From assembly GCF_013315695.1 (NCBI RefSeq), contig NZ_CP054353.1: 64,000 bases of DNA; one strand, given 5' to 3'. The notes beneath the pieces were generated by a model that searched no databases, had not been told where the DNA came from, and worked only from the letters and a program-made list of their open reading frames with translations. A program made the translations under genes and the position numbers. Shown one piece after another: positions 12,667-28,660 of the stretch. How positions within the stretch are numbered: position 1 is the first letter of the stretch; each line of letters opens with the position of its first letter. This DNA is from Escherichia coli. GTDB lineage: Bacteria > Pseudomonadota > Gammaproteobacteria > Enterobacterales > Enterobacteriaceae.

Positions 12667-13083
12667 ATGAAGAGCGTTAAGGGACTTTCAGATATTCAGG
12701 ACTTCTTTAACTGGATGTGGGCGGTGGATCCCCTGCTGGCTTCCCGCCTGAACAACTGGCACGACTATTACCGCCGCGCCTGTAAACAGGCTGCCCGCAG
12801 CGTCACCACATACGGGGATTTCTCCTTCACCGTGGACGGTCGTTACCGCGTGGACGTGAAAGGTGATGGTGATGGACTGGGTTTATTTCACATCAACGGC
12901 ACCGACAGTACCGCCATCAGCTGGTCGTCATCAGAGATGGCGCTGGTTCTGGAAATGACAACCCACAGCGTGGCCGTGAAAGGTATATACACCGCAGAAG
13001 GTTTTATCGGCGAATACCAGCGCCTTCTCGTGCTGTACCGCGCGGCGTTTCAGGTGGCAACTGCCGGGGAGTGCGACGCATGA
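12667..13083 (+). CDS. hypothetical protein (138 aa) immediately upstream of and coupled to gene A
   Basis: ATG with GGAGG RBS; stop overlaps the A start (ATGA). Confidence 0.6.
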   Translation: MKSVKGLSDIQDFFNWMWAVDPLLASRLNNWHDYYRRACKQAARSVTTYGDFSFTVDGRYRVDVKGDGDGLGLFHINGTDSTAISWSSSEMALVLEMTTHSVAVKGIYTAEGFIGEYQRLLVLYRAAFQVATAGECDA

Positions 13084-15593
13084 GCGACCATAACGCACAA
13101 CTGGCGTACCCGTGGAACGCCCCGCTACCGGTTATCGATCCTGAAACGTTCGGCAGAGCACAGCCAACCGCATTACGCCAGGCCATTCAGAGCTACATCA
13201 ACGAGGACATTCGCATTGATGCCAGACTGGATGAAGAAACCGTCGCCTTTCTGACAACCACAGACGAAGGGAAGCGAATTAATTCGCACCTTCACCACAA
13301 CGAAGAGCGTCGGATCAGACTGGAAAAACTGGCGCGGCACAAACGCGAGAATCCGCCCACGGTGGTATCGGAAGCCATGGCAGAACTTCGCGCCCTGCCC
13401 TCGTTTCTTGGCAACGCGCTCATTCGTGATCTGGCGCGTTTAAACCGCAAACAGCAAAGCGCCCGCCATGAAGGCGTGAAAAACAACAATACACACGTGG
13501 CTGATAACTTTGTTCGCCGTGGACTGCGCACACGCCTGAAACGCATCGAACAGGTGAATGAATGCTTCGCCACGACGGCATTCAAAGCCACCGCAGCACG
13601 CCATCGCCTTGATGAATTACTCATGCTGCCACAACTCAACCGTGATCAAATTCAGCGCCTTGCCACACTAACGGCGGCGGCATTTTCCACCGAACTGGAA
13701 CGCATATGTGATGAAGTTACTGAGCGGACAGGAAAAGGCGACGATAACCTGTTTACCTGGTTGCTGACTTACCAGCAGCTGGCGCGCATGGCAATAAAAC
13801 TGGGCGTGAACCCACCATACTGGCCGTCACTCGAGATCAGACGTGACCGCCGCACGGCACCAGACCCTGAACTGGTACCGGGCGCGGTAATGCGTATCAC
13901 CTGCGCCACCTGGTGGAACAACCAGCTGCGCCACCTCGCTGATCTCTGGCGGGAGGAATTACTGCGTGCCGCCGGAAGAGTATCGCGCAAGGCATCCCCC
14001 TACATCAGCCATGAGTCACTCCAGGAATTCCGGGAGAAACGCCAGCGCACCCGTGATTTTCTCAAAAGCTGGGACATTGAAAACGAAGACGGTGAACGCC
14101 TGAGCCTGGAGGACGTGTACTGGTCAGGGCTGGGGAATCCGCGCAACCGCCGCAACGAGATGATGGCCTGCGTCAGAGGGATGGAACAGGTCGCCGAATC
14201 GCGTGGTGACTCCGCGTTCTTCGTGACAGTGACCTGCCCTTCCCGCTTTCACAGCGTAAACGAGGACGGCAGCCTGAACCCGAAATACAACGGTGCCACC
14301 GTGCGCGATGCCAGTGATTATCTGGTTTACGACGTCTTTGCAGCTGCAAGAAAAAAACTCAACAAAGAAGGCCTGAGCTGGTACGGGGTGCGCACCGTTG
14401 AGCCACACCATGACGGCACACCGCACTGGCACATGCTGGTATTCACCGCCCCGGACAATGAAGAACGCATCATTGAAATCATGCGTGACGCAGCAATCAA
14501 ATCAGATCGCGCAGAACTGGGGAATGATATTTCTCCGCGCTTCAAGTGCGAAAAAATCGACCCGGCAAAAGGCACACCGGCAAGCTACATCGCAACCTAT
14601 ATTGGCAAGAACCTGGACGCCAGCACCTTTCACGACAATGACCCGAAAACCGGCAAACCTTACGCCGATAAAGAATCGGGAAAAACCATGGCGGAAACCG
14701 TGGAAAACGCCATTGCCTGGGCGAGTCTCCACCGCATCCGGCAGTTCCAGTTCTTCGGTATCCCGCCCCGCCAGGTATGGCGTGAACTCCGCCGCCTTGC
14801 CGGACAAATGGAGCGTAACCCCGCATCACCGAAGCGCCTGGACCATGACGACATTGACGCCATTCTGGCCGCCGCTGACGTGGGGTGTTTTGCCACCTAC
14901 ATCAACCGTCAGGGCGGCGTGCTCATTCCACGCAACCTGTACCTGATCCGCACCGCATACGAAACCGCAGATGAGGCCAACGACTACGGCGAATTCCCGC
15001 AGCGCATCTACGGAATTTGTGCCCCGTCGCTCGGCGAGCGCTACACCATCTGCACCCATCCGGACGAGTGGAAACTGGTCAGAAAAGAAGCGAAAGCCGA
15101 CAACAGCACGGACGAGGATTTTGACGTTGGGGGCGGCTTCGCCGCACCTTGGACTCGTGGCAATAACTGTCGCCATGATGAAAAAACAGACACCGAAGAG
15201 GGTAAAAACCCACCACCGGAAACCAGGAAAGAACAAAAACTGGTCGTCCCGGAAGGTGATTTGGGCGAGTGGTTAAGGTCACTGACCCCCACAGAGCGAA
15301 AACAACTCACCAGGCAGCTGAAAGATGCGCCATCTGACACAAAAACCGTGAAAACCGGCGGCCCCACCACGCCCGATGACGTCATACATGTGCGTACCGC
15401 ATTGCCGCTGGCTGACGTCACCACCACCGTGATCAAGTCGGCACTGAGCACGACGGGCGAGGAGCTGCACAGTGGCGCGGCACTTTCCGTACACAGAGGT
15501 GCACGCGTTCGCCTGCCTGACGGGCGGATTGTGCACTGGGATGAGAAATCACGAAGCCTGGTGGCAGCAGATCAACCGGAGGTGAACCCATGA
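13080..15593 (+). CDS. replication initiation endonuclease, P2 gpA-like (HUH rolling-circle initiator)
   Basis: 837 aa; GTPHWHMLVF H-hydrophobic-H motif; size and position as P2/186 A. Confidence 0.88.
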   Translation: MSDHNAQLAYPWNAPLPVIDPETFGRAQPTALRQAIQSYINEDIRIDARLDEETVAFLTTTDEGKRINSHLHHNEERRIRLEKLARHKRENPPTVVSEAMAELRALPSFLGNALIRDLARLNRKQQSARHEGVKNNNTHVADNFVRRGLRTRLKRIEQVNECFATTAFKATAARHRLDELLMLPQLNRDQIQRLATLTAAAFSTELERICDEVTERTGKGDDNLFTWLLTYQQLARMAIKLGVNPPYWPSLEIRRDRRTAPDPELVPGAVMRITCATWWNNQLRHLADLWREELLRAAGRVSRKASPYISHESLQEFREKRQRTRDFLKSWDIENEDGERLSLEDVYWSGLGNPRNRRNEMMACVRGMEQVAESRGDSAFFVTVTCPSRFHSVNEDGSLNPKYNGATVRDASDYLVYDVFAAARKKLNKEGLSWYGVRTVEPHHDGTPHWHMLVFTAPDNEERIIEIMRDAAIKSDRAELGNDISPRFKCEKIDPAKGTPASYIATYIGKNLDASTFHDNDPKTGKPYADKESGKTMAETVENAIAWASLHRIRQFQFFGIPPRQVWRELRRLAGQMERNPASPKRLDHDDIDAILAAADVGCFATYINRQGGVLIPRNLYLIRTAYETADEANDYGEFPQRIYGICAPSLGERYTICTHPDEWKLVRKEAKADNSTDEDFDVGGGFAAPWTRGNNCRHDEKTDTEEGKNPPPETRKEQKLVVPEGDLGEWLRSLTPTERKQLTRQLKDAPSDTKTVKTGGPTTPDDVIHVRTALPLADVTTTVIKSALSTTGEELHSGAALSVHRGARVRLPDGRIVHWDEKSRSLVAADQPEVNP

Positions 15594-16580: not shown

Positions 16581-16898
16581 ATGCCAACACAGGTTGCAAC
16601 AGAGGGACGACTGGCAGCAGACCCGAACACAAGGAGAACAGCCAAAGGTACCAGCGTCACAACAGCACAACTGGCGGTATCACTACCCTGCCATGGCGCA
16701 GAACAGCCAACCACAATGTGGCTTTACCTTATCGCGTTCGGGAAGCAACACGAAGAACTGGCAAAACACAGAAAAGGCGATCTGATCCTGGTGCACGGGA
16801 ACTTGCAGGTAAACAGGTATCAGGACAAGTACGAGCAACAGAAAGAGGGCTGGCAGCTGCTGACGCAAAGCATTATCAGCTCAAGAACCGGGCGATGA
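16581..16898 (+). CDS. SSB-like OB-fold protein lacking the acidic C-terminal tail (105 aa)
   Basis: GGGAGA RBS; aligns by eye to the E. coli SSB OB fold ([25 protein letters not shown] vs [59 protein letters not shown] vs [35 protein letters not shown]); ends right after the fold. Confidence 0.6.
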   Translation: [105 protein letters not shown]

Positions 16899-16908
16899 CT
16901 TCACGCAT

Positions 16909-16947
16909 GTTACCCTCAGCAGCGAGGGTAACACAGGATTTCTTTTT
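16909..16947. terminator. bidirectional terminator between the convergent SSB-like gene and membrane-protein gene
   Basis: gttaccctc-agcagc-gagggtaac hairpin followed by a T-run. Confidence 0.6.
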
Positions 16948-17592
16948 TCAGTCAAACCGAAATCGGCCGCTTGTCGCGTATGCATAGGTGACCACCGCAC
17001 CCAGCGCATTCACACGCTTCTTCACATAAATCACATTACCATCCTGATAGTCACCGTATGGGTAGCAAATAAAGATTGTTTTTTGCAAATCAGGATCATC
17101 AACAAATGCCCCTGAACAACTTTTTGAGCTACCGCGACTGTACTCATAGGGAGCGGAATAGAATGAATCTTCACCCGGAAGAAAATATATCAGCGTAACC
17201 AGGAGGGTAAACAGAATCATCCAGGTAAGAAGGCACATACCCGAAAAAAACTTAAGATACGATGTAACCCCGGTAAATTTAGACCGATCAACCAGGTTCT
17301 TTTTCAACAGGCACAGTGAGACAAAAACCGAAAGCACCACAGACACTGAAACAAGGCAGTTTGTCGTGAACGAATAAAGGTAGGTAATTCTGTAAACATC
17401 GTTTCGCCACCAAATAAAAAGAAAAATCCCCCCCAAAACAGAAAGCGTGACAAAAGTTAAATAAGGATATGAGTAATTTTTCACAGTTCTCACCCGGCAA
17501 TACACCACTGATTCAGACAGATGATTATCATCACCACCCACCCCCAAAAATCGCAAGATAAAAAATGCACAAAAGCGCACGAAATTGCACAA
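16948..17592 (-). CDS. AT-rich cargo gene: multi-pass membrane protein (3-4 predicted TM helices) with about 70-aa soluble C-terminal domain; start codon unresolved
   Basis: ORF-track frame starts at TTG; first in-frame ATG gives only 96 aa; a GTG with GGTGA upstream gives about 177 aa; local GC far below flanks; sits where P2 carries old/tin. Confidence 0.5.
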   Translation of the reverse strand: MCNFVRFCAFFILRFLGVGGDDNHLSESVVYCRVRTVKNYSYPYLTFVTLSVLGGIFLFIWWRNDVYRITYLYSFTTNCLVSVSVVLSVFVSLCLLKKNLVDRSKFTGVTSYLKFFSGMCLLTWMILFTLLVTLIYFLPGEDSFYSAPYEYSRGSSKSCSGAFVDDPDLQKTIFICYPYGDYQDGNVIYVKKRVNALGAVVTYAYATSGRFRFD

Positions 17593-17688
17593 TTTTTCTT
17601 ATGTGTTTCATCCCCATTCAGCCCAGTAACGGCGCTGGCTGAGGCCGGTTTGCACGGTGCACGAAAAACGAGGCAATTGCAGCGCGCA

Positions 17689-17707
17689 GGCGACGAGGGA
17701 AGGGCGC
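17689..17707. other. candidate cos cohesive-end region (ggcgacgagggaagggcgc)
   Basis: GC-rich segment between the A-side cargo and the portal gene; resembles the P2 cos sequence as I recall it. Confidence 0.3.
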
Positions 17708-18038
17708 CCGAATTGAGGGGTGGAAGGCAGGTTGCTTTATTTGGGGTCGTATTGCGCGTGATACGCACGCAGTGAAGCCGGTTCTGAAAAAACCACACCG
17801 AAACAGAGTCAGAAAAACAGGCCGCCAGAATGCGTCTGGTTGAGTTTTACGGGGTCGGGATTAAATGCGGAAACATCACACCGCAGGCATGACGCGAAAA
17901 AGAGAAAAACCACAGCAAAACATAATGTTAAATGTTATTGATGAGTTGAGAAGCGAGAGGTGTATTGCGTTGACAGAGCTGGAGAGTCGGGGCATAAATT
18001 TTTTATGCCCCGGCGAAGCAGCCGACAAGCGAAGCGCG

Positions 18039-19082
18039 TCAGCTGGCGTTATCCTGAAGCAACGCATAGGGGTTAAAGCGCATTACCTCGCTTCCCAGCC
18101 ATTCATTGACATGCTTCATGGCCTCCATGACAGGTTGCAGCTCGTTGATGAAAAACACCCTCGCCGCTTTCTCAACGTCACCGAGCGCCGCGTTCCCGTC
18201 AGGCATTGCCCCCATCAGCTGAGGCGGTACACGGTGAGCCGCAAGGATATCGTCACGGGCGGTACCCTTGATGTTAAGGAATTCGTCCTTCGCGGTGATT
18301 TGCTGGAACGGCAGTATTTGCACACCATCCTTGCCGCCACCTGGCGCGTGCAGAAGGATATTGCGGAACGCCCCCTTGCCACGGGATTCCGTGAGGGTTT
18401 TCTTTACCGCCTCCACGCTTTCAGCGTTTGCCTGGGCGGCCCCGACATAGACAATGCACCCGGCATGTGAGCCGTTGTCATAGTAGAGCTTGCGGAACGT
18501 GTCCGCCGAGTTCGACAGGCTCACCGACAGCAGCCCACCGATATACTCCGGCATCCCGTAGATTTCCTGGTTGATATCAGGGTTCAGAACATGGCACACA
18601 GCCCCCTTCCGGAACGCGAATTCAGAACCATCATCATTGAGGTACCAGTACGTATCGAGATCACTGCCCCGCCGCGTGTATTTCGCCAGCGCCGGGCGGA
18701 GCGCAATGGGCTCACCGAACCTGTTACGGCGCACCTCAAGATAGGCATTACCGAACACAAACCAGTCGAGTGCAAACGCTGAAAACGCCTGGCGGGACAG
18801 GAGCGGATGAGGAACAAAGCACCCGTTCAGGGCGTTGCGCTTAAAATACAGGGCCGACTGGTGCCATGACGCACGACGGGAGGCGCGAGCAATGGCGTTC
18901 CAGTCCATGGGGGTGTCATAGTAGCGGCCATTATCGGCGCACGACATATTATCAAGAAGATCAAGACGGCTTGCTTCATAAGGACCGTCAAACGTGAAAG
19001 CACTGAGTGACGGCGCTGATTTCAGTGCATCGGCCAGTGAGCCCGTGCCGCGCTTTCCGGTGTATTTTTTACGTTTACTCAT
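18039..19082 (-). CDS. portal protein, P2 gpQ-like
   Basis: 347 aa; size and position next to terminase ATPase. Confidence 0.85.
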   Translation of the reverse strand: MSKRKKYTGKRGTGSLADALKSAPSLSAFTFDGPYEASRLDLLDNMSCADNGRYYDTPMDWNAIARASRRASWHQSALYFKRNALNGCFVPHPLLSRQAFSAFALDWFVFGNAYLEVRRNRFGEPIALRPALAKYTRRGSDLDTYWYLNDDGSEFAFRKGAVCHVLNPDINQEIYGMPEYIGGLLSVSLSNSADTFRKLYYDNGSHAGCIVYVGAAQANAESVEAVKKTLTESRGKGAFRNILLHAPGGGKDGVQILPFQQITAKDEFLNIKGTARDDILAAHRVPPQLMGAMPDGNAALGDVEKAARVFFINELQPVMEAMKHVNEWLGSEVMRFNPYALLQDNAS

Positions 19083-19087
19083 TGTGT

Positions 19088-20821
19088 TCAGAACTCCATT
19101 GCAAAGCCACGATTATCCTCACGCTCTGCGCCGATTGGCTCATTGATAACAGCAAGCATGGTTGCCCAGGCGAGATCACCATGACTGACACCCCGGGAGC
19201 GGTCAGTGTCATAGGTGATATAGCCGCCGGGCGTCTGTATTTTTCGCACCGATGAAAATGCCTGTATCAGGTCGCGTTCGCTGCGGTCATACTCCCACCG
19301 TCCGGCGCGGACCACCTGAAGCATCTTCATGACCAGCGCCCGTTTGGACGCGATATTGAAGTTGTACGGAACAGCCAGGGGGAAGAGCTTTTTCACAATC
19401 TGATAAACCCCTTCGCCGTTACCACCGGTCACATCAATACCAATATGTTTCACGTTATATTTCTTCGTGTACTCCTCGATCAGGGCAGCTTGTTGTTCAA
19501 ACTCCATACCCTGAACCCTGACTGTCTCCACCGTGCGAAAACGCCCACCGGCAACAAGGGGTGGCACGCACACCGACAGCGCCCCGCAGTCCCCTTTCCC
19601 GCTGCTGCCGTTGGCATCATAGCCAAGCCAGACCTCCCGAACGCCCATCGGACGGGACGCAAAAGGTTTCCAGTCAGGCCATTCATCGTAACCATCCACG
19701 CCGCAGCCGATGAGCGCATTCAGGCTGAAGGCCGCCTCACCATCACGGACAAATTCGCACATGTACAGATTGCGAAATTCACTTTCTGTATTCTCATCGC
19801 GAATATCATCAATACTGGTGAACTGCCATCCGTTAGCGACAGCATCCTCGATAGTGACAATCTGCCGCCACGTTTTATCGGGAAAGAGCACGCCCCCCTT
19901 CAGGTGGGCATGTGAAACATCAAATTCATTGCGTTTTGAGCGCGGCCGCTCGCTGTTCCAGCGGTCCCCTGTCCAGAACTGATACGCCTCATGCGTCTCA
20001 CCTGACGGCGTAGAGAAGTAAGTGCGCGTAAGCCCTTTCAGCGTCGCCATTGCCCCGGCAACCTTCCTGAGGTTCACAAAGTTACTGACCCAGAAAAATT
20101 CGTCGAATTTCAGATGACCGGTATAGGACTGCGCGGTGGCAGCTGACGTACCGAGGAAGTGCAGCTCGGCACCGTTGGACAGCACAATTTTGTCGCCGCC
20201 TTTGAGCTCAACATCCACCTCCTGAGCAGCCTGCTGAATGAAATGCTTGAACTGATACGCCTGACGACGGGAGGCGGACAAAAATATCTGGTTGCGCTGA
20301 TACCCGGCGGAGACATCATCACGCAGTGCATCAAGGAGCGCCTCGCGCGCAAAATACCAGGTCGCACCAATCTGACGCGACTTCAGGATCATGCGGTTGC
20401 GGTGGTGGCGGTTTTCGTACCATTCGCGTTGATGCCAGGCCAGTGACGGCAGGATTTTTTCCCTGAGCGCAGCAATCTGTTCTTCGGTGAAGTGATTTTT
20501 CAGTCTGCGTTTACGGGGCTTTTTACCGGAAACGGCATGCTCTCCCTGACTGTCATTCAGTTTTTTCAGCTGGCGCGTGAGAAGGTCAATTTCCTTAAAA
20601 TCGCTGCCGCTTTTCTCTGTTTTTGTGGTGAGCTGGATGAGGCGCGCATCAATGGACTGGGTGACCCGCTGGATCGGGGGGGTGGCATCCCACTCATCGC
20701 GTTTTTTCCATGAGTAAATCGTGTTCTGGCTGATCCCCATCAGTTGCGAGATTTCCGCAGGCGTGTACCCTTGCCAGTAAAGTTGTCTCGCTCCTATGCG
20801 GACAAATGCATCCTGAATCAT
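19088..20821 (-). CDS. terminase large (ATPase) subunit, P2 gpP-like
   Basis: 577 aa; divergent from the capsid operon as in P2. Confidence 0.85.
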   Translation of the reverse strand: MIQDAFVRIGARQLYWQGYTPAEISQLMGISQNTIYSWKKRDEWDATPPIQRVTQSIDARLIQLTTKTEKSGSDFKEIDLLTRQLKKLNDSQGEHAVSGKKPRKRRLKNHFTEEQIAALREKILPSLAWHQREWYENRHHRNRMILKSRQIGATWYFAREALLDALRDDVSAGYQRNQIFLSASRRQAYQFKHFIQQAAQEVDVELKGGDKIVLSNGAELHFLGTSAATAQSYTGHLKFDEFFWVSNFVNLRKVAGAMATLKGLTRTYFSTPSGETHEAYQFWTGDRWNSERPRSKRNEFDVSHAHLKGGVLFPDKTWRQIVTIEDAVANGWQFTSIDDIRDENTESEFRNLYMCEFVRDGEAAFSLNALIGCGVDGYDEWPDWKPFASRPMGVREVWLGYDANGSSGKGDCGALSVCVPPLVAGGRFRTVETVRVQGMEFEQQAALIEEYTKKYNVKHIGIDVTGGNGEGVYQIVKKLFPLAVPYNFNIASKRALVMKMLQVVRAGRWEYDRSERDLIQAFSSVRKIQTPGGYITYDTDRSRGVSHGDLAWATMLAVINEPIGAEREDNRGFAMEF

Positions 20822-25951: not shown

Positions 25952-27889
25952 ATGAGCAAAAAACATTTTGAGTTGATTACCGCCATGAGCCGTACGGAGC
26001 TGGCTGAGAAAGTTAACGAACGTCTGGCGCTGGGCTGGCAGCTTCAGGGCGACGCACAGGTTGCGTCAGAGCCGGGCGTGCCGTGGTATTTGATGCAGGC
26101 CATGACCGGTGATCAGCCCGTCACCGACGAGCCGCAAATTGCTGTGGATGACGAAGGGAACACAATCAACGAACCGGAATACTACTTCGTCATTGCTCTG
26201 GCCGGGCAATCCAACGGCATGGCGTATGGCGAAGGTCTGCCGCTGCCTGAGACATACGATCGCCCCGATCAGCGCATTAAGCAACTGGCACGCCGCAGTA
26301 CTGTCACGCCGGGTGGTGCGTCCTGTAATTACAACGACATTATTCCTGCGGACCACTGCCTGCATGATGTTCAGGATTTGAGTAAGTTTTCACACCCGAA
26401 AGCCAGCGCAGCTCAGTATGGATGCGTGGGGCAGGGATTACATATCGCGAAGAAATTGTTGCCGTTTATTCCGGCGAATGCGGGCATTCTTCTGGTTCCG
26501 TGCTGTCGTGGTGGATCTGCGTTTACTACAGGGGGTGATGGCGCTTTCAGTGAAACAACCGGTGCAACAGAAGCATCGTCTCGTTGGGGGGTCGATAAAC
26601 CGTTATACAAGGATCTACTCACCCGAACAAAAGCCGCACTGAAAACCAACCCTAAAAACATTCTGCTTGCAGTGGTCTGGATGCAGGGCGAGTTTGACTT
26701 AAAACAAACAACGGCATATTCCAACCAGCCAGCGGCGTTTGATGCCATGGTGGCAAAATACCGCTCCGATCTGGCGGGCGTATCAGGTCAGTGCGTTGGT
26801 GGCTCTTCATCATCAGTACCCTGGATTTGTGGTGATACAACTTATTACTGGAAAGAGACATATCCAACCGAGTACGGTGTTGTCTATGGCGCATACAAAA
26901 ACAAGCAGGCTAAAAACATCTTCTTTGTGCCGTTTATGACGGATGAAAACGGTCAGAATGTTGGCACCAACGAGCCAGATGAAGATCCTGATATCACTGA
27001 AATCGACTATTACGGTTCTGGATGGCGCAAAGATAAAACCACATGGACAACGGCAGATCGTAAAACTCACTTTGGCTCATGGGCACGTCGGGGAATTATT
27101 TCAGATCGTCTTGCTACAGCAATAATTGAGCATGCAGGTAAAACGGAAGCACTTGTTTATGGCAGGGTAACGCTCAGTAAAGAGGAAGAGCGCCCGGAAG
27201 AGGAAGATGAACCCATTGTAAAACCCACAGCTGAACAGTCAGTTATACTTTACGACGCTAAAAATGCCTCAGATACCAATTTACAGGCGCTGAACTGGGA
27301 GTTGAAGGATGTCACCCCCTCTCTGATTCAGGAGGGAAGTAATAAGGCGTTGCGTCTTGAGAAAAGCAACAGTGCGAAACCATGGTCATTACTTCATAGT
27401 ATTGCAGCCGAAAAATCAGGACAACTTCTGGAAAAAGGCGGAGAAATTTCCGTTCGCTTCAAAATACCTGAAAACACCTCTCTTGATACAGGAAAAAATA
27501 AGTATGTGTTAGGGCTGTACTGGAAAATAGCGGGATGGCCAGGTGATGGCGGAGAAGGCTATCTGAGTTCTTTTCTTGTTCAGACAGATAAAGCAAACCT
27601 GGATGTTGTTTACCATTACAACAGTAATCAACTGAAAGATATTGGTACATTTGATGAGTTTGATCATGACTGGCATACGCTCGCATTCAGGTTTGAAGGC
27701 GGTAACAGCCTCAGCGTTACACCGGTGCTCGATGGTAAAGATGGTCAGGCGTTTGATCTTGTTAAGTGGACTAATTCAGCTAATGAGGCCAATAAGTTTA
27801 TTTTGACCGATATTACTGGCACAGCTGAAACGTATCCTGTCCTTATTGAGACAATCGAAGTTAAAGCAAACCAGGCAGCAGCGAAATAA
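25952..27889 (+). CDS. sialate O-acetylesterase, NanS-p-like (SGNH/SASA domain with C-terminal lectin-like region)
   Basis: 645 aa; GQSN block (ALAGQSNGMAYGEG); size and domain order match prophage NanS-p esterases as recalled; inserted between lysis and tail genes. Confidence 0.7.
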   Translation: MSKKHFELITAMSRTELAEKVNERLALGWQLQGDAQVASEPGVPWYLMQAMTGDQPVTDEPQIAVDDEGNTINEPEYYFVIALAGQSNGMAYGEGLPLPETYDRPDQRIKQLARRSTVTPGGASCNYNDIIPADHCLHDVQDLSKFSHPKASAAQYGCVGQGLHIAKKLLPFIPANAGILLVPCCRGGSAFTTGGDGAFSETTGATEASSRWGVDKPLYKDLLTRTKAALKTNPKNILLAVVWMQGEFDLKQTTAYSNQPAAFDAMVAKYRSDLAGVSGQCVGGSSSSVPWICGDTTYYWKETYPTEYGVVYGAYKNKQAKNIFFVPFMTDENGQNVGTNEPDEDPDITEIDYYGSGWRKDKTTWTTADRKTHFGSWARRGIISDRLATAIIEHAGKTEALVYGRVTLSKEEERPEEEDEPIVKPTAEQSVILYDAKNASDTNLQALNWELKDVTPSLIQEGSNKALRLEKSNSAKPWSLLHSIAAEKSGQLLEKGGEISVRFKIPENTSLDTGKNKYVLGLYWKIAGWPGDGGEGYLSSFLVQTDKANLDVVYHYNSNQLKDIGTFDEFDHDWHTLAFRFEGGNSLSVTPVLDGKDGQAFDLVKWTNSANEANKFILTDITGTAETYPVLIETIEVKANQAAAK

Positions 27890-27896
27890 TAAAAAA

Positions 27897-27919
27897 CCCC
27901 CTCCGGCATTCGGAGGGGG
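27897..27919. other. strong GC stem-loop (ccccctccg-gcatt-cggaggggg) after the esterase gene
   Basis: 9-bp stem; A-run on the 5' side, so the T-run is on the minus strand. Confidence 0.5.
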
Positions 27920-28189
27920 AGAGAAACTAACCATTAAAAACGAATATCTATAAGCATCTCAATTCTGGCGTTTTACACCATCACACGCAATGCAAAGGAG
28001 CAATGTATGAATTTATTTCAACAGTCCATGTTGTATTTCAGTGCTGCAGTATGCGTCATATGGGTGTGATAAGGCAGACAGAACTTCCGGAACAAAAAAC
28101 AAATAAGGCAGCAGTAAGAAAAGCAGCTGGCGGTACAACTAACCGATCCTGAAATAGCCTGCCATACACAACAAACAGACGGTGTTTTT

Positions 28190-28660
28190 ATGCTGAAAAT
28201 GAACTCATTACGCGAAGCACTGACCAGCAACTGCCGGTGGTGCAAAGCCAATCCGGAAAAATTCACGGTATTCACTGAGTCCGGAGGCATTGAGACCACC
28301 GCAGAAAGACCGTCATTTCTGTATCGCTACAACCTGGTCGTTTTCATCATGGATTTCACGGAAAGCATCGACAACATCATGCTGCCGGTAATGGCGTGGC
28401 TGTACCGCAACCAGCCTGACCTGCTGCTTAATCCGGAGAAGAACAAAAGCATTAAATTTTCGACGGCCATTAACGACGATGACAGCGCCGATATCCTGCT
28501 GGAAATCCCGGTATGGGAACGCGTGATTGTACGCCGCAACGATGACGGCACGGTAACGGCAGAGCATATCGGTGAGCCACCGATAAGCCGGGCACTGGAA
28601 GCATGGCGAGTGGTCTTTGAAGACATGACATGGAAAACCGCAGAAGAGGCCGGGGCATGA
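28190..28660 (+). CDS. tail completion protein, P2 gpR-like
   Basis: 156 aa; MLKMNSLREALT start resembles P2 R; P2 gene order. Confidence 0.8.
   Translation: MLKMNSLREALTSNCRWCKANPEKFTVFTESGGIETTAERPSFLYRYNLVVFIMDFTESIDNIMLPVMAWLYRNQPDLLLNPEKNKSIKFSTAINDDDSADILLEIPVWERVIVRRNDDGTVTAEHIGEPPISRALEAWRVVFEDMTWKTAEEAGA

What the first reader, a model, noticed from the sequence alone, without database searches (positions are those of the whole stretch)
16948..17700. AT-rich membrane-protein moron at the old/tin-equivalent position of the prophage
Between the SSB-like operon and cos/portal lies a single minus-strand gene in a visibly AT-rich patch, encoding 3-4 TM helices plus a ~70-aa soluble tail (…YPYGDYQDGNVIYVKKRVNALGAVVTYAYATSGRFRFD). 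In P2 this A-to-Q junction carries old and tin, which exclude other phages. I recognise no family, and the start codon is unresolved (TTG, GTG or a late ATG), so this is a candidate lysogen-expressed exclusion gene without a name.
Basis: partly seen in the sequence, partly recalled or inferred. Interest (0 to 1): 0.75.

Follow-up and report, generated by a model that had tools for sequence, protein, structure and literature searches.

The report
Unnamed membrane-protein cargo in prophage hotspot
A P2-like prophage carries, exactly where phage P2 keeps its anti-phage genes old and tin, a swappable gene for an uncharacterised inner-membrane protein with a small periplasm-facing domain; it is a good but untested candidate for a new kind of phage-exclusion protein.

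Summary
A minus-strand gene lies in a low-GC patch (42% against 55% in the flanks) between the gpA/SSB early operon and cos/portal of a P2-like (P88-type) prophage.

The start codon is now resolved: GTG at 17484, giving 178 aa (16948-17484). The protein has 3 TM helices, not 4, then a roughly 75-aa beta domain with two invariant cysteines. The predicted topology is N-in/C-out, so that domain faces the periplasm.

The gene sits in a 673-bp cassette (16889-17561). Sister prophages carry a DUF4760 gene, a TumE toxin-antitoxin pair or nothing in the same slot.

Homologues at 48-58% identity occupy the same gpA-gpQ slot in other E. coli, Salmonella and Klebsiella P2-like prophages. A 52% paralogue is a reverse-oriented moron in phage 434 and in 17% of complete E. 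coli genomes (Sakai ECs_0804).

No Pfam, NCBIfam, PADLOC, PDB or viral-structure match exists; the only hit is PHROG 1416, of unknown function. Rousset et al. 2022 already list this exact protein as "hypothetical" hotspot cargo, and it has not been tested.

Function is inferred only. Envelope-level superinfection exclusion is the most likely reading (about 0.4). Non-defence envelope roles and a Cap15-like abortive effector remain open.

The parts
16948..17484 (-). CDS of 178 aa (GTG start; identical to RefSeq WP_000801013.1). It has 3 TM helices (about residues 6-33, 38-61, 73-101) and a C-terminal beta domain (residues 102-178) with invariant C123 and C140.
17489..17495 (-). Shine-Dalgarno-like GGGTGAG, 4 nt before the GTG start.
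   Evidence: Sequence. Analogous GGGAG motifs lie upstream of distant homologues.
17485..17592 (-). In-frame upstream extension of the long ORF. It is not coding: it is not conserved in homologues and shows 10% divergence between copies whose CDS is about 100% identical.
16889..17561 (.). Swappable cargo cassette (673 bp, 43% GC). Flanks on both sides are shared with sister prophages that carry different cargo.
16907..16934 (.). An 11-bp-stem hairpin between the convergent SSB and target genes (-20.6 kcal/mol, z = -5). A T-run follows on the + strand only, so it is probably the terminator of the early operon and a barrier for the target transcript.
17566..17593 (-). Three phased direct repeats, ATTGTGCAA-TTTC-GTGCG-CTTT-TGTGCA, at the cos-side edge of the cassette. 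The start of the repeat block (ATTGTGCAA, 17593) lies 109 nt upstream of the start codon. They are conserved in all sister prophages whatever the cargo, in other P2-like lineages, and in diverged form upstream of the phage 434 paralogue. They resemble the three ATGCA repeats around the mapped old-tin promoter of P2. Candidate promoter or operator, or a recombination junction.
17689..17707 (.). Probable cohesive-end (cos) sequence: GCGCCCTTCCCTCGTCGCC on the - strand, matching P2 cosR at 13 of 19 positions and aligning with it and with two other P2-like prophages.
   Evidence: The P2 cos pattern itself is not found at up to 3 mismatches, so this is inferred by alignment only.
17428..17434 (-). 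G7 homopolymer inside the CDS (codons for L-G-G-I). It is G9 in strain STEC17-183, which frameshifts the gene; PGAP annotates no gene there.

Best explanation
Shown.
- The feature is a horizontally exchanged accessory gene (moron) in the cos-proximal gpA-gpQ diversity hotspot of a P2-like (P88/Xuanwuvirus-type) prophage.
- It has the position and orientation of P2 old/tin.
- It encodes a conserved 178-aa protein with 3 predicted TM helices and a C-terminal beta domain.

Inferred from sequence statistics and the AF2 model.
- Topology is N-terminus and the K/R-rich loop 2 in the cytoplasm, with loop 1 and the roughly 75-aa beta domain in the periplasm.
- The beta domain is probably stabilised by a disulfide between the two invariant cysteines.

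Inferred by analogy to P2 old/tin.
- The gene is transcribed leftward from the cos-proximal region and is expressed in the lysogen.

Inferred, not tested.
- The protein acts alone at the inner-membrane/periplasm interface to exclude superinfecting phages.
- It would do so by blocking genome entry, for example by engaging an inner-membrane entry factor or the incoming tail-tip or ejection proteins, rather than by killing the cell.
For: Position, orientation and variability.
- gpA...SSB (+) | target (-) | cos | Q, P (-).
- The same slot holds a DUF4760 gene, a TumE/HVO_A0114 toxin-antitoxin pair or nothing in sister prophages with the same flanks.
- P2 old and tin are on the same strand next to cosR, with mapped mRNA starts between old and cos. 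The window aligns to that cos-proximal region.

Recurrence.
- Homologues at 48-58% identity sit in the gpA-gpQ slot of other P2-like prophages of E. coli, Salmonella and Klebsiella. They lie beside varying neighbours: StbAB, YafO, an AAA_16 two-gene system.
- A 52% paralogue is a reverse-oriented moron between xis and exo in phage 434.
- That paralogue occurs in 907 of 5426 E. coli genomes. It stays intact in the degraded O157 prophage Sp3, where int and bet are pseudogenes.

A real protein under constraint.
- About 59 clusters at 50% identity share one architecture.
- C140 and G162 are invariant. C123, G118, G125, I137 and K156 are conserved in at least 90% of sequences.
- 29 of 31 members have exactly two Cys in the C-domain.
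- The AF2 model has pLDDT 94 and pTM 0.83.

Topology.
- K+R density is 0.20 (N-terminus) and 0.27 (loop 2), against 0.14 (loop 1) and 0.115 (C-domain), over 31 sequences.
- The model pairs a loop-1 strand (residues 34-36) with the C-domain.

Stand-alone action.
- No partner gene is conserved across contexts.

Prior.
- The gpA-gpQ locus is an experimentally validated anti-phage hotspot (PMC9122126).
- 6 of 8 randomly chosen unknown-function P4 hotspot loci gave protection (bioRxiv 10.64898/2026.02.27.708500).
Against: - There is no experimental datum on expression or phenotype. No paper mentions WP_000801013, WP_000120056 or ECs0804.
- There is no similarity to any known exclusion or defence protein. 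PADLOC gives 0 hits, PHROGs only an unknown-function family, hhalign against P22 SieA gives probability 0.3%, and BFVD and PDB give nothing.
- No convincing sigma-70 promoter was found upstream.
- P2 hotspots also carry non-defence cargo such as partition systems and cytolethal distending toxin. Machine-learning scoring in the 2026 preprint flags only 15-32% of unknown P2 hotspot proteins as antiviral.
- Distant family members are stand-alone chromosomal genes next to housekeeping operons, such as the sucrose regulon and ABC transporters. This shows the family is not restricted to phages.
Confidence: 0.4

Rival explanations
1. A non-defence lysogenic-conversion or general envelope protein. In this reading it is an inner-membrane protein whose periplasmic domain serves host physiology, for example immunity to a bacteriocin or a periplasm-acting toxin, modulation of a sensor or transporter, or envelope stress tolerance. 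Prophages would carry it because it benefits the host.
For: - Distant family members (20-42% identity to the window protein) are single chromosomal genes in Pantoea, Hafnia, Pseudomonas, Proteus and others. They lie beside unrelated housekeeping genes with no phage genes nearby.
- P2 hotspots are known to hold non-defence cargo.
- No defence-model hit was found.
- The small multi-pass membrane format resembles orphan immunity proteins (own knowledge, not tested).
Against: - The closest relatives (48-58% identity) are all in prophage hotspots or moron positions.
- Some neighbours are defence-like: an AAA_16 pair in Klebsiella and DUF4062-STAND/TPR genes beside P0048.
- No cognate toxin gene is adjacent in any context.
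Confidence: 0.3
2. An abortive-infection membrane effector of the TM-plus-beta-barrel type (Cap15/OptE, S-2TMbeta-like). On a phage cue it would oligomerise and permeabilise the inner membrane.
For: - In the Foldseek search of AFDB50, beyond the sequence family, the model's neighbours are roughly 190-aa TM+beta proteins at 16-20% identity. One of them (A0AAU6U6D7, TMq 0.65, E = 2.4e-7) is annotated as a SMODS-associating 2TM beta-strand-rich effector.
- Cap15 and OptE are two-pass TM proteins fused to a beta-barrel, and they disrupt membranes (PMC12657218).
Against: - Pfam S_2TMBeta is not matched by any of the 31 family members, and PADLOC CBASS effector models do not hit.
- The protein has 3 TM helices, not 2. 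That places the beta domain on the opposite side from the N-terminus, and positive-inside counts and the conserved Cys pair put it in the periplasm, where it could not sense a cytoplasmic nucleotide.
- No cyclase or other sensor gene is adjacent in any of about 15 contexts.
- The Foldseek hit was obtained with the lower-quality first model (pLDDT 73).
Confidence: 0.12
3. A lytic-cycle helper rather than a lysogen-expressed gene. It would be transcribed by read-through from the co-directional late P-Q operon across cos in circular or replicating DNA, and would act in lysis timing, envelope remodelling or protection of the infected cell late in infection.
For: - The gene is on the same strand as, and downstream of, P and Q.
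- The hairpin after Q has no U-run.
- No strong autonomous promoter was detected.
Against: - The gene is dispensable and swappable.
- In phage 434 it is opposite to the early-left operon and far from late genes.
- It is retained intact in a decayed prophage.
- P2 old and tin share this orientation yet have their own mapped promoter and are lysogenic-conversion genes.
Confidence: 0.08
4. A non-functional or spurious ORF in an AT-rich remnant.
For: - The start codon is GTG and the promoter is weak.
- One copy (STEC17-183) is frameshifted at a G7 tract.
- Annotated lengths are inconsistent across records: 178, 210 and 235 aa.
Against: - Full-length conservation holds across about 59 clusters at 50% identity down to 20% identity, with invariant Cys and Gly positions.
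- The AF2 model is confident (pLDDT 94).
- Between E. coli copies the CDS carries 0-1 substitutions while the adjacent non-coding DNA carries 10%.
Confidence: 0.03

Closest known systems
P2 old and tin (lysogenic-conversion exclusion genes in the gpA-gpQ, cos-proximal hotspot; Rousset et al. 2022, PMC9122126)
   Same: - Same slot between the replication gene A block and cos/Q.
- Same strand, convergent with A.
- Accessory and swapped between related prophages.
- The cos-proximal upstream DNA aligns with the region that holds the mapped old-tin mRNA starts.
   Different: - There is no sequence or domain relationship. Old is an AAA/Toprim nuclease and Tin is a cytoplasmic protein, whereas this is a 3-TM inner-membrane protein with a periplasmic domain.
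- Its function is untested.
Prophage-encoded inner-membrane superinfection-exclusion proteins (P22 SieA, T4 Imm/Sp, HK97 gp15)
   Same: - Small, single-gene membrane protein.
- A moron oriented against neighbouring phage operons. P22 sieA is likewise a reverse-oriented gene with its own promoter.
- Predicted to act at the inner membrane or periplasm.
   Different: - No homology: hhalign against SieA gives probability 0.3%, and no PHROG annotated as exclusion matches.
- The architecture differs. It has a 3-TM anchor plus a disulfide-containing beta domain, which SieA and Imm lack, to my own knowledge.
S-2TMbeta effectors (CBASS Cap15, Panoptes OptE)
   Same: An N-terminal TM hairpin or bundle followed by a small beta-rich domain, in a protein of about 170-200 aa. 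One AFDB structural neighbour carries this annotation.
   Different: - 3 TM helices rather than 2.
- The beta domain is predicted periplasmic rather than cytoplasmic.
- There is no Pfam or PADLOC match and no adjacent nucleotide synthase.
PHROG 1416, phage 434 CPT_434B_36 and E. coli O157 Sakai ECs_0804 (uncharacterised 'putative membrane protein')
   Same: True homologues. PHROG 1416 matches at E = 1.2e-49, identity is 52% over 94% of the length, and the architecture and invariant residues are the same.
   Different: - They sit in lambdoid prophages between xis and exo rather than in a P2-type hotspot.
- They are equally uncharacterised.
- The PHROG profile covers only the C-terminal 90 residues.

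Membership tests
P2-type gpA-gpQ hotspot cargo (Rousset et al. 2022) | Located between the replication endonuclease gpA and the portal gpQ of a P2-like prophage | tested here: met
   The exact protein WP_000801013 is listed in Table S5A of PMC9122126.
P2-type gpA-gpQ hotspot cargo (Rousset et al. 2022) | Gene content of the slot varies between prophages that share the flanks | tested here: met
   DUF4760 gene, TumE+HVO_A0114 pair, or empty. Boundaries are 16889 and 17561.
P2-type gpA-gpQ hotspot cargo (Rousset et al. 2022) | Confers anti-phage protection when cloned | not testable with these tools
   Not among the systems tested in PMC9122126. No literature exists.
PHROG 1416 / 3TM-beta family | Significant match to the family profile and shared architecture | tested here: met
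   E = 1.2e-49. 59 representative clusters have one architecture.
P22 SieA-type exclusion proteins | Sequence or profile homology to SieA | tested here: not met
   hhalign probability 0.3%.
Superinfection-exclusion proteins (functional class) | Expressed from the prophage in the lysogen | tested here: inconclusive
   The orientation and the cos-proximal region homologous to the P2 old-tin promoter region argue for it. No consensus promoter was found.
Superinfection-exclusion proteins (functional class) | Blocks adsorption or DNA entry of incoming phage without cell death | not testable with these tools
   Needs plating, adsorption and DNA-entry assays.
S-2TMbeta (Cap15/OptE) effectors | Match to Pfam S_2TMBeta or PADLOC CBASS effector models | tested here: not met
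   No hit for any of 31 members. PADLOC gives 0 hits.
S-2TMbeta (Cap15/OptE) effectors | Two TM helices with a cytoplasmic nucleotide-binding beta-barrel | tested here: not met
   Three TM helices. Positive-inside counts and the conserved Cys pair place the domain in the periplasm. This rests on prediction only.
S-2TMbeta (Cap15/OptE) effectors | Operon partner that makes a nucleotide signal (CD-NTase or mCpol) | tested here: not met
   None is present in any context examined.
MliC/PliC lysozyme inhibitors | Profile homology. The lead was the S-x-S-G-A motif. | tested here: not met
   hhalign against E. coli MliC gives probability 0.3%. Pfam shows no MliC hit.

The most novel reading that the evidence does not exclude
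The protein is the founding, testable member of a new family of periplasm-facing, single-gene superinfection-exclusion proteins. The family would be shared between P2-like hotspots and lambdoid morons, and the 434-type paralogue is present in about 17% of complete E. coli genomes, including O157 Sakai ECs_0804. Its disulfide-bonded beta domain would block phage genome translocation at the inner membrane by a mechanism unrelated to SieA, Imm, Sp or gp15.
Probability: 0.3. Interest if true: 0.65.

Novelty: new variant of a known kind. Interest (0 to 1): 0.45.

Why it matters
If the exclusion function is real, a very common but unnamed prophage gene family would gain a function. The family occurs in P2-like prophages of E. 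coli, Salmonella and Klebsiella, and in lambdoid prophages in roughly one in six E. coli genomes, including EHEC. It would also add a structurally new, single-gene, envelope-level defence to the catalogue. Current tools (PADLOC, and Pfam-based annotation) miss it.

It would also illustrate transfer of one cargo cassette, with its upstream repeat element, between P2-type and lambda-type phages.

If the function is not antiviral, the finding is an ordinary hypothetical membrane protein in a known hotspot.

Tried and rejected
Searches that found nothing.
- PADLOC, NCBIfam and Pfam gave no hit, either on the protein or on all 31 family members.
- A PDB sequence-profile search gave nothing below E = 0.15.
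- Foldseek against BFVD viral structures gave nothing (best E = 3.6e-3, TM below 0.3).
- A second profile search of the 5.8-billion-protein set added no annotated relative and no Pfam-labelled hit.
- Rfam found no RNA family in 16800-18100.
- Literature searches for WP_000801013, WP_000120056, ECs0804 and phage 434 exclusion found nothing relevant. DUF4760 appears in one unrelated paper.

Hypotheses rejected.
- Homology to P22 SieA was rejected.
- Homology to MliC, prompted by the SCSGA motif, was rejected.
- The TTG 17592 start and the late ATG start (the 90-aa version used by PHROG 1416) were rejected on conservation and substitution pattern.
- A possible Fur-box-like GATGATAATCAT at 17521-17532 was judged chance. 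It is mutated in the other allele and absent from homologues.

Leads that stayed inconclusive.
- Consensus sigma-70 scans upstream of this gene and of 10 homologues gave no site at 9 of 12 or better. The best site in the window is TTGCGA-18-GATGAT, 8 of 12.
- The P2 cos 19-mer is not found at up to 3 mismatches. cos was therefore placed only by alignment.

Full report
**1. What is there**

The 64-kb window holds a P2-like prophage. Around the finding the order of genes is:
- replication endonuclease gpA, 13071-15593 (+);
- three small ORFs, including a MarR-like gene;
- a 105-aa SSB, 16581-16898 (+);
- one minus-strand ORF;
- a roughly 550-bp non-coding stretch;
- portal Q, 18039-19082 (-), and terminase P, 19088-20821 (-), followed by scaffold O (+).

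RefSeq annotation of a 100%-identical copy in E. coli SW071611 gives the same gene names. The nearest isolated phages are P88/Xuanwuvirus types, but they share only about 70 bp next to the portal with this region.

The minus-strand ORF is 42.1% GC, against 55% for both flanking blocks. It lies in the lowest 2.3% of equal-sized windows across the 64 kb.

**2. The gene model**

The longest ORF (TTG 17592, 214 aa) is not the gene. Five lines of evidence agree on a GTG start at 17484.
- In 31 diverse homologues, conservation starts exactly at M-K-(K/N)-x-S-Y, which corresponds to GTG 17484. The sequence upstream of it is unrelated between lineages.
- GGGTGAG lies 4 nt before this GTG, and distant homologues have GGGAG at the same place.
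- Among E. coli copies, the 537-bp CDS differs at 0-1 positions (two synonymous changes and one V55A overall). The next 108 bp upstream differ at 11 positions.
- PGAP calls the same 178-aa product, WP_000801013.1, which has been seen on about 1000 contigs.
- The late-ATG version (90 aa) is what PHROG 1416 was built on, which explains why that profile covers only the C-terminal half.

**3. The protein**

With a 31-sequence alignment, AlphaFold2 gives pLDDT 94 and pTM 0.83. The model has helices 6-33, 38-61 and 73-101, a short strand at 34-36, and then five strands between 105 and 171.

Hydropathy finds three TM segments. K+R density over the 31 sequences is 0.20 (N-terminus) and 0.27 (loop 2), against 0.14 (loop 1) and 0.115 (C-domain). 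By the positive-inside rule this gives N-in/C-out. The loop-1 strand packs on the C-domain in the model, which fits both being on the same, periplasmic, side.

C140 and G162 are invariant. C123, G118, G125, I137, K156 and W26 are conserved in at least 90% of sequences. 29 of 31 proteins have exactly two cysteines in the C-domain. A periplasmic disulfide is the natural reading, but it is an inference.

**4. It is swappable hotspot cargo**

The MarR/SSB flank occurs in 31 of 5426 complete E. coli genomes, and the gene occurs in 21.

Sister prophages share DNA up to 16888 on one side and from 17562 on the other, but carry other cargo:
- a minus-strand DUF4760 gene (JNEC-KY179);
- a plus-strand TumE toxin with an HVO_A0114 DNA-binding partner (Bongo, LZSFT34);
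- nothing (2013C-3033).

The cassette is thus 16889-17561, 673 bp at 43% GC. Copies of the cassette that are 100% identical sit in flanks only 94% identical to the window's, which indicates recombination.

One copy (STEC17-183) is frameshifted by G7 to G9 at 17428-17434.

**5. Relation to P2 old/tin**

In P2, tin and old lie on the minus strand between orf91/A and cosR. The old-tin mRNA 5' ends are mapped about 150-170 nt from the cohesive end.

The window's minus-strand sequence GCGCCCTTCCCTCGTCGCC (17707-17689) aligns with P2 cosR (13 of 19 positions) and with the same element in two other P2-like prophages.

About 95 nt further on lie three phased repeats, ATTGTGCAA/GTGCG/TGTGCA (17593-17566).
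- They occur once in the window and zero times in shuffles.
- They end exactly at the cassette boundary.
- They are conserved in every sister prophage whatever its cargo.
- They resemble P2's three ATGCA repeats that overlap the old -35 region.

A cos-proximal leftward promoter is plausible by homology. No good sigma-70 consensus could be located, however, so expression in the lysogen remains inferred.

**6. The family elsewhere**

At 50% clustering the family has about 59 representatives, nearly all 165-190 aa with the same architecture. They come from Enterobacterales and Pseudomonas.

The closest relatives are again prophage cargo in the gpA-gpQ slot, on the portal strand:
- an E. coli P2-like prophage, beside StbA/StbB;
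- three Salmonella contexts, one beside YafO;
- Klebsiella michiganensis, beside an AAA_16 two-gene module.

A 52% paralogue is a reverse-oriented gene between xis and exo in phages 434, 2B8 and mEp332.
- It is present in 907 of 5426 E. coli genomes.
- One example is O157 Sakai Sp3 (ECs_0804), where int and bet are pseudogenes but this gene is intact.
- The 434 copy carries about 130 nt of upstream leader that is homologous to the P2-like copies, including a diverged version of the three repeats. This suggests the cassette moved between P2-type and lambdoid phages together with a piece of hotspot edge.

More distant members are solitary chromosomal genes in varied neighbourhoods. Examples are the sucrose regulon, an integrase-bounded islet, and a site next to DUF4062-STAND/TPR genes. 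No partner gene is conserved.

**7. Comparison with known families**

- There is no match in Pfam, NCBIfam, PADLOC or PDB sequences.
- P22 SieA and MliC are unrelated by hhalign.
- Foldseek against AFDB50, run with the first and weaker model, returned family members and then roughly 190-aa uncharacterised TM+beta proteins. One of those is annotated S-2TMbeta.
- That family (Cap15, OptE) has two TM helices and a cytoplasmic nucleotide-binding barrel partnered with a cyclase (PMC12657218). Here there are three helices, a predicted periplasmic domain, no Pfam match and no cyclase. Membership is therefore not supported, although a distant fold relationship cannot be excluded.
- Rousset et al. 2022 list this exact protein as 'hypothetical' in their table of P2 hotspot loci but did not test it.
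- A 2026 preprint reports that 19% of P2-like elements have only unknown genes at the main defence locus. It also reports that 6 of 8 random unknown P4 loci protected, and that machine-learning scoring flags 15-32% of unknown P2 proteins as antiviral.

**8. Mechanism and verdict**

Shown:
- the gene is a real, conserved, single-gene membrane protein;
- it is accessory and swappable;
- it sits in the old/tin slot in the old/tin orientation;
- it recurs in prophage hotspots.

Inferred:
- N-in/C-out topology with a disulfide-bonded periplasmic beta domain;
- expression from the cos-proximal region in the lysogen;
- action at the envelope.

The best-supported mechanism is superinfection exclusion by interference with genome entry at the inner membrane (about 0.4). 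The rivals are a non-defence envelope or immunity role (about 0.3), a Cap15-like abortive effector (about 0.12), a late-cycle helper (about 0.08) and a non-functional ORF (about 0.03).

The locus type is already known and this protein is already catalogued, so the surprise is moderate. The value lies in a cleanly delimited, easily testable candidate from a common but unnamed family.

Noticed in passing
window 17566-17593 (-): Three phased direct repeats, ATTGTGCAA-N4-GTGCG-N4-TGTGCA, lie exactly at the cos-side boundary of the cargo cassette. They are conserved in sister prophages with different cargo and in other P2-like lineages, and in diverged form upstream of the phage 434 paralogue. They resemble the ATGCA repeats around the P2 old-tin promoter. 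They could be a shared 'slot' promoter or operator, or the recombination junction for cassette exchange.
   Followed up: partly
window 17689-17707: A probable cohesive-end sequence of this prophage (+ strand GGCGACGAGGGAAGGGCGC) aligns with P2 cosR at 13 of 19 positions. This makes the target the last gene at the right end of the virion chromosome.
   Followed up: partly
window 17973-18043: A roughly 70-bp block just past the portal stop codon contains the hairpin GGGGCATAAAAAATTTATGCCCC. It is 95-97% identical in hundreds of E. coli genomes, even where the adjacent portal gene is only about 72% identical or is not matched at all. It is probably a conserved tQ-like terminator or packaging-related element.
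   Followed up: no
window 17428-17434: A G7 homopolymer lies inside the CDS. It is G9 (a frameshift) in strain STEC17-183. This is either pseudogenisation, slippage-prone switching or a sequencing error. The tract is absent from the 434-type paralogue.
   Followed up: partly
L013:5251-5748 (-) and L013:6469-6972 (+); L015:4444-5192 (+): The alternative cargo of the same slot is a DUF4760 protein plus a 167-aa hypothetical protein (WP_000017881), or a TumE-family toxin with an HVO_A0114 DNA-binding protein. PADLOC has no hit at E <= 0.01 for the first three; the HVO_A0114 protein gives only weak CARF/CasR-like matches (best E = 5.7e-4). None amounts to a recognised defence system, so these are further untested hotspot candidates.
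   Followed up: partly
L001:4755-4925 (+) (phage 434): A 56-aa predicted membrane protein gene lies directly upstream of the 434 paralogue on the same strand. It has no counterpart in the window cassette.
   Followed up: no
window 25952-27889 (+), low-GC patch about 26976-28363: A second low-GC patch in the prophage covers the C-terminal half of a 645-aa ORF with a GQSNG-type (SGNH/esterase-like) motif. It may be another accessory or host-range module. It was not analysed.
   Followed up: no
L003/L004 1-5510: A distant family member (P0048) sits beside two large DUF4062-AAA-TPR (STAND-like) genes and, in some contigs, a Lactamase_B/Apyc1-like gene. The neighbourhood looks like a defence island.
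   Followed up: no
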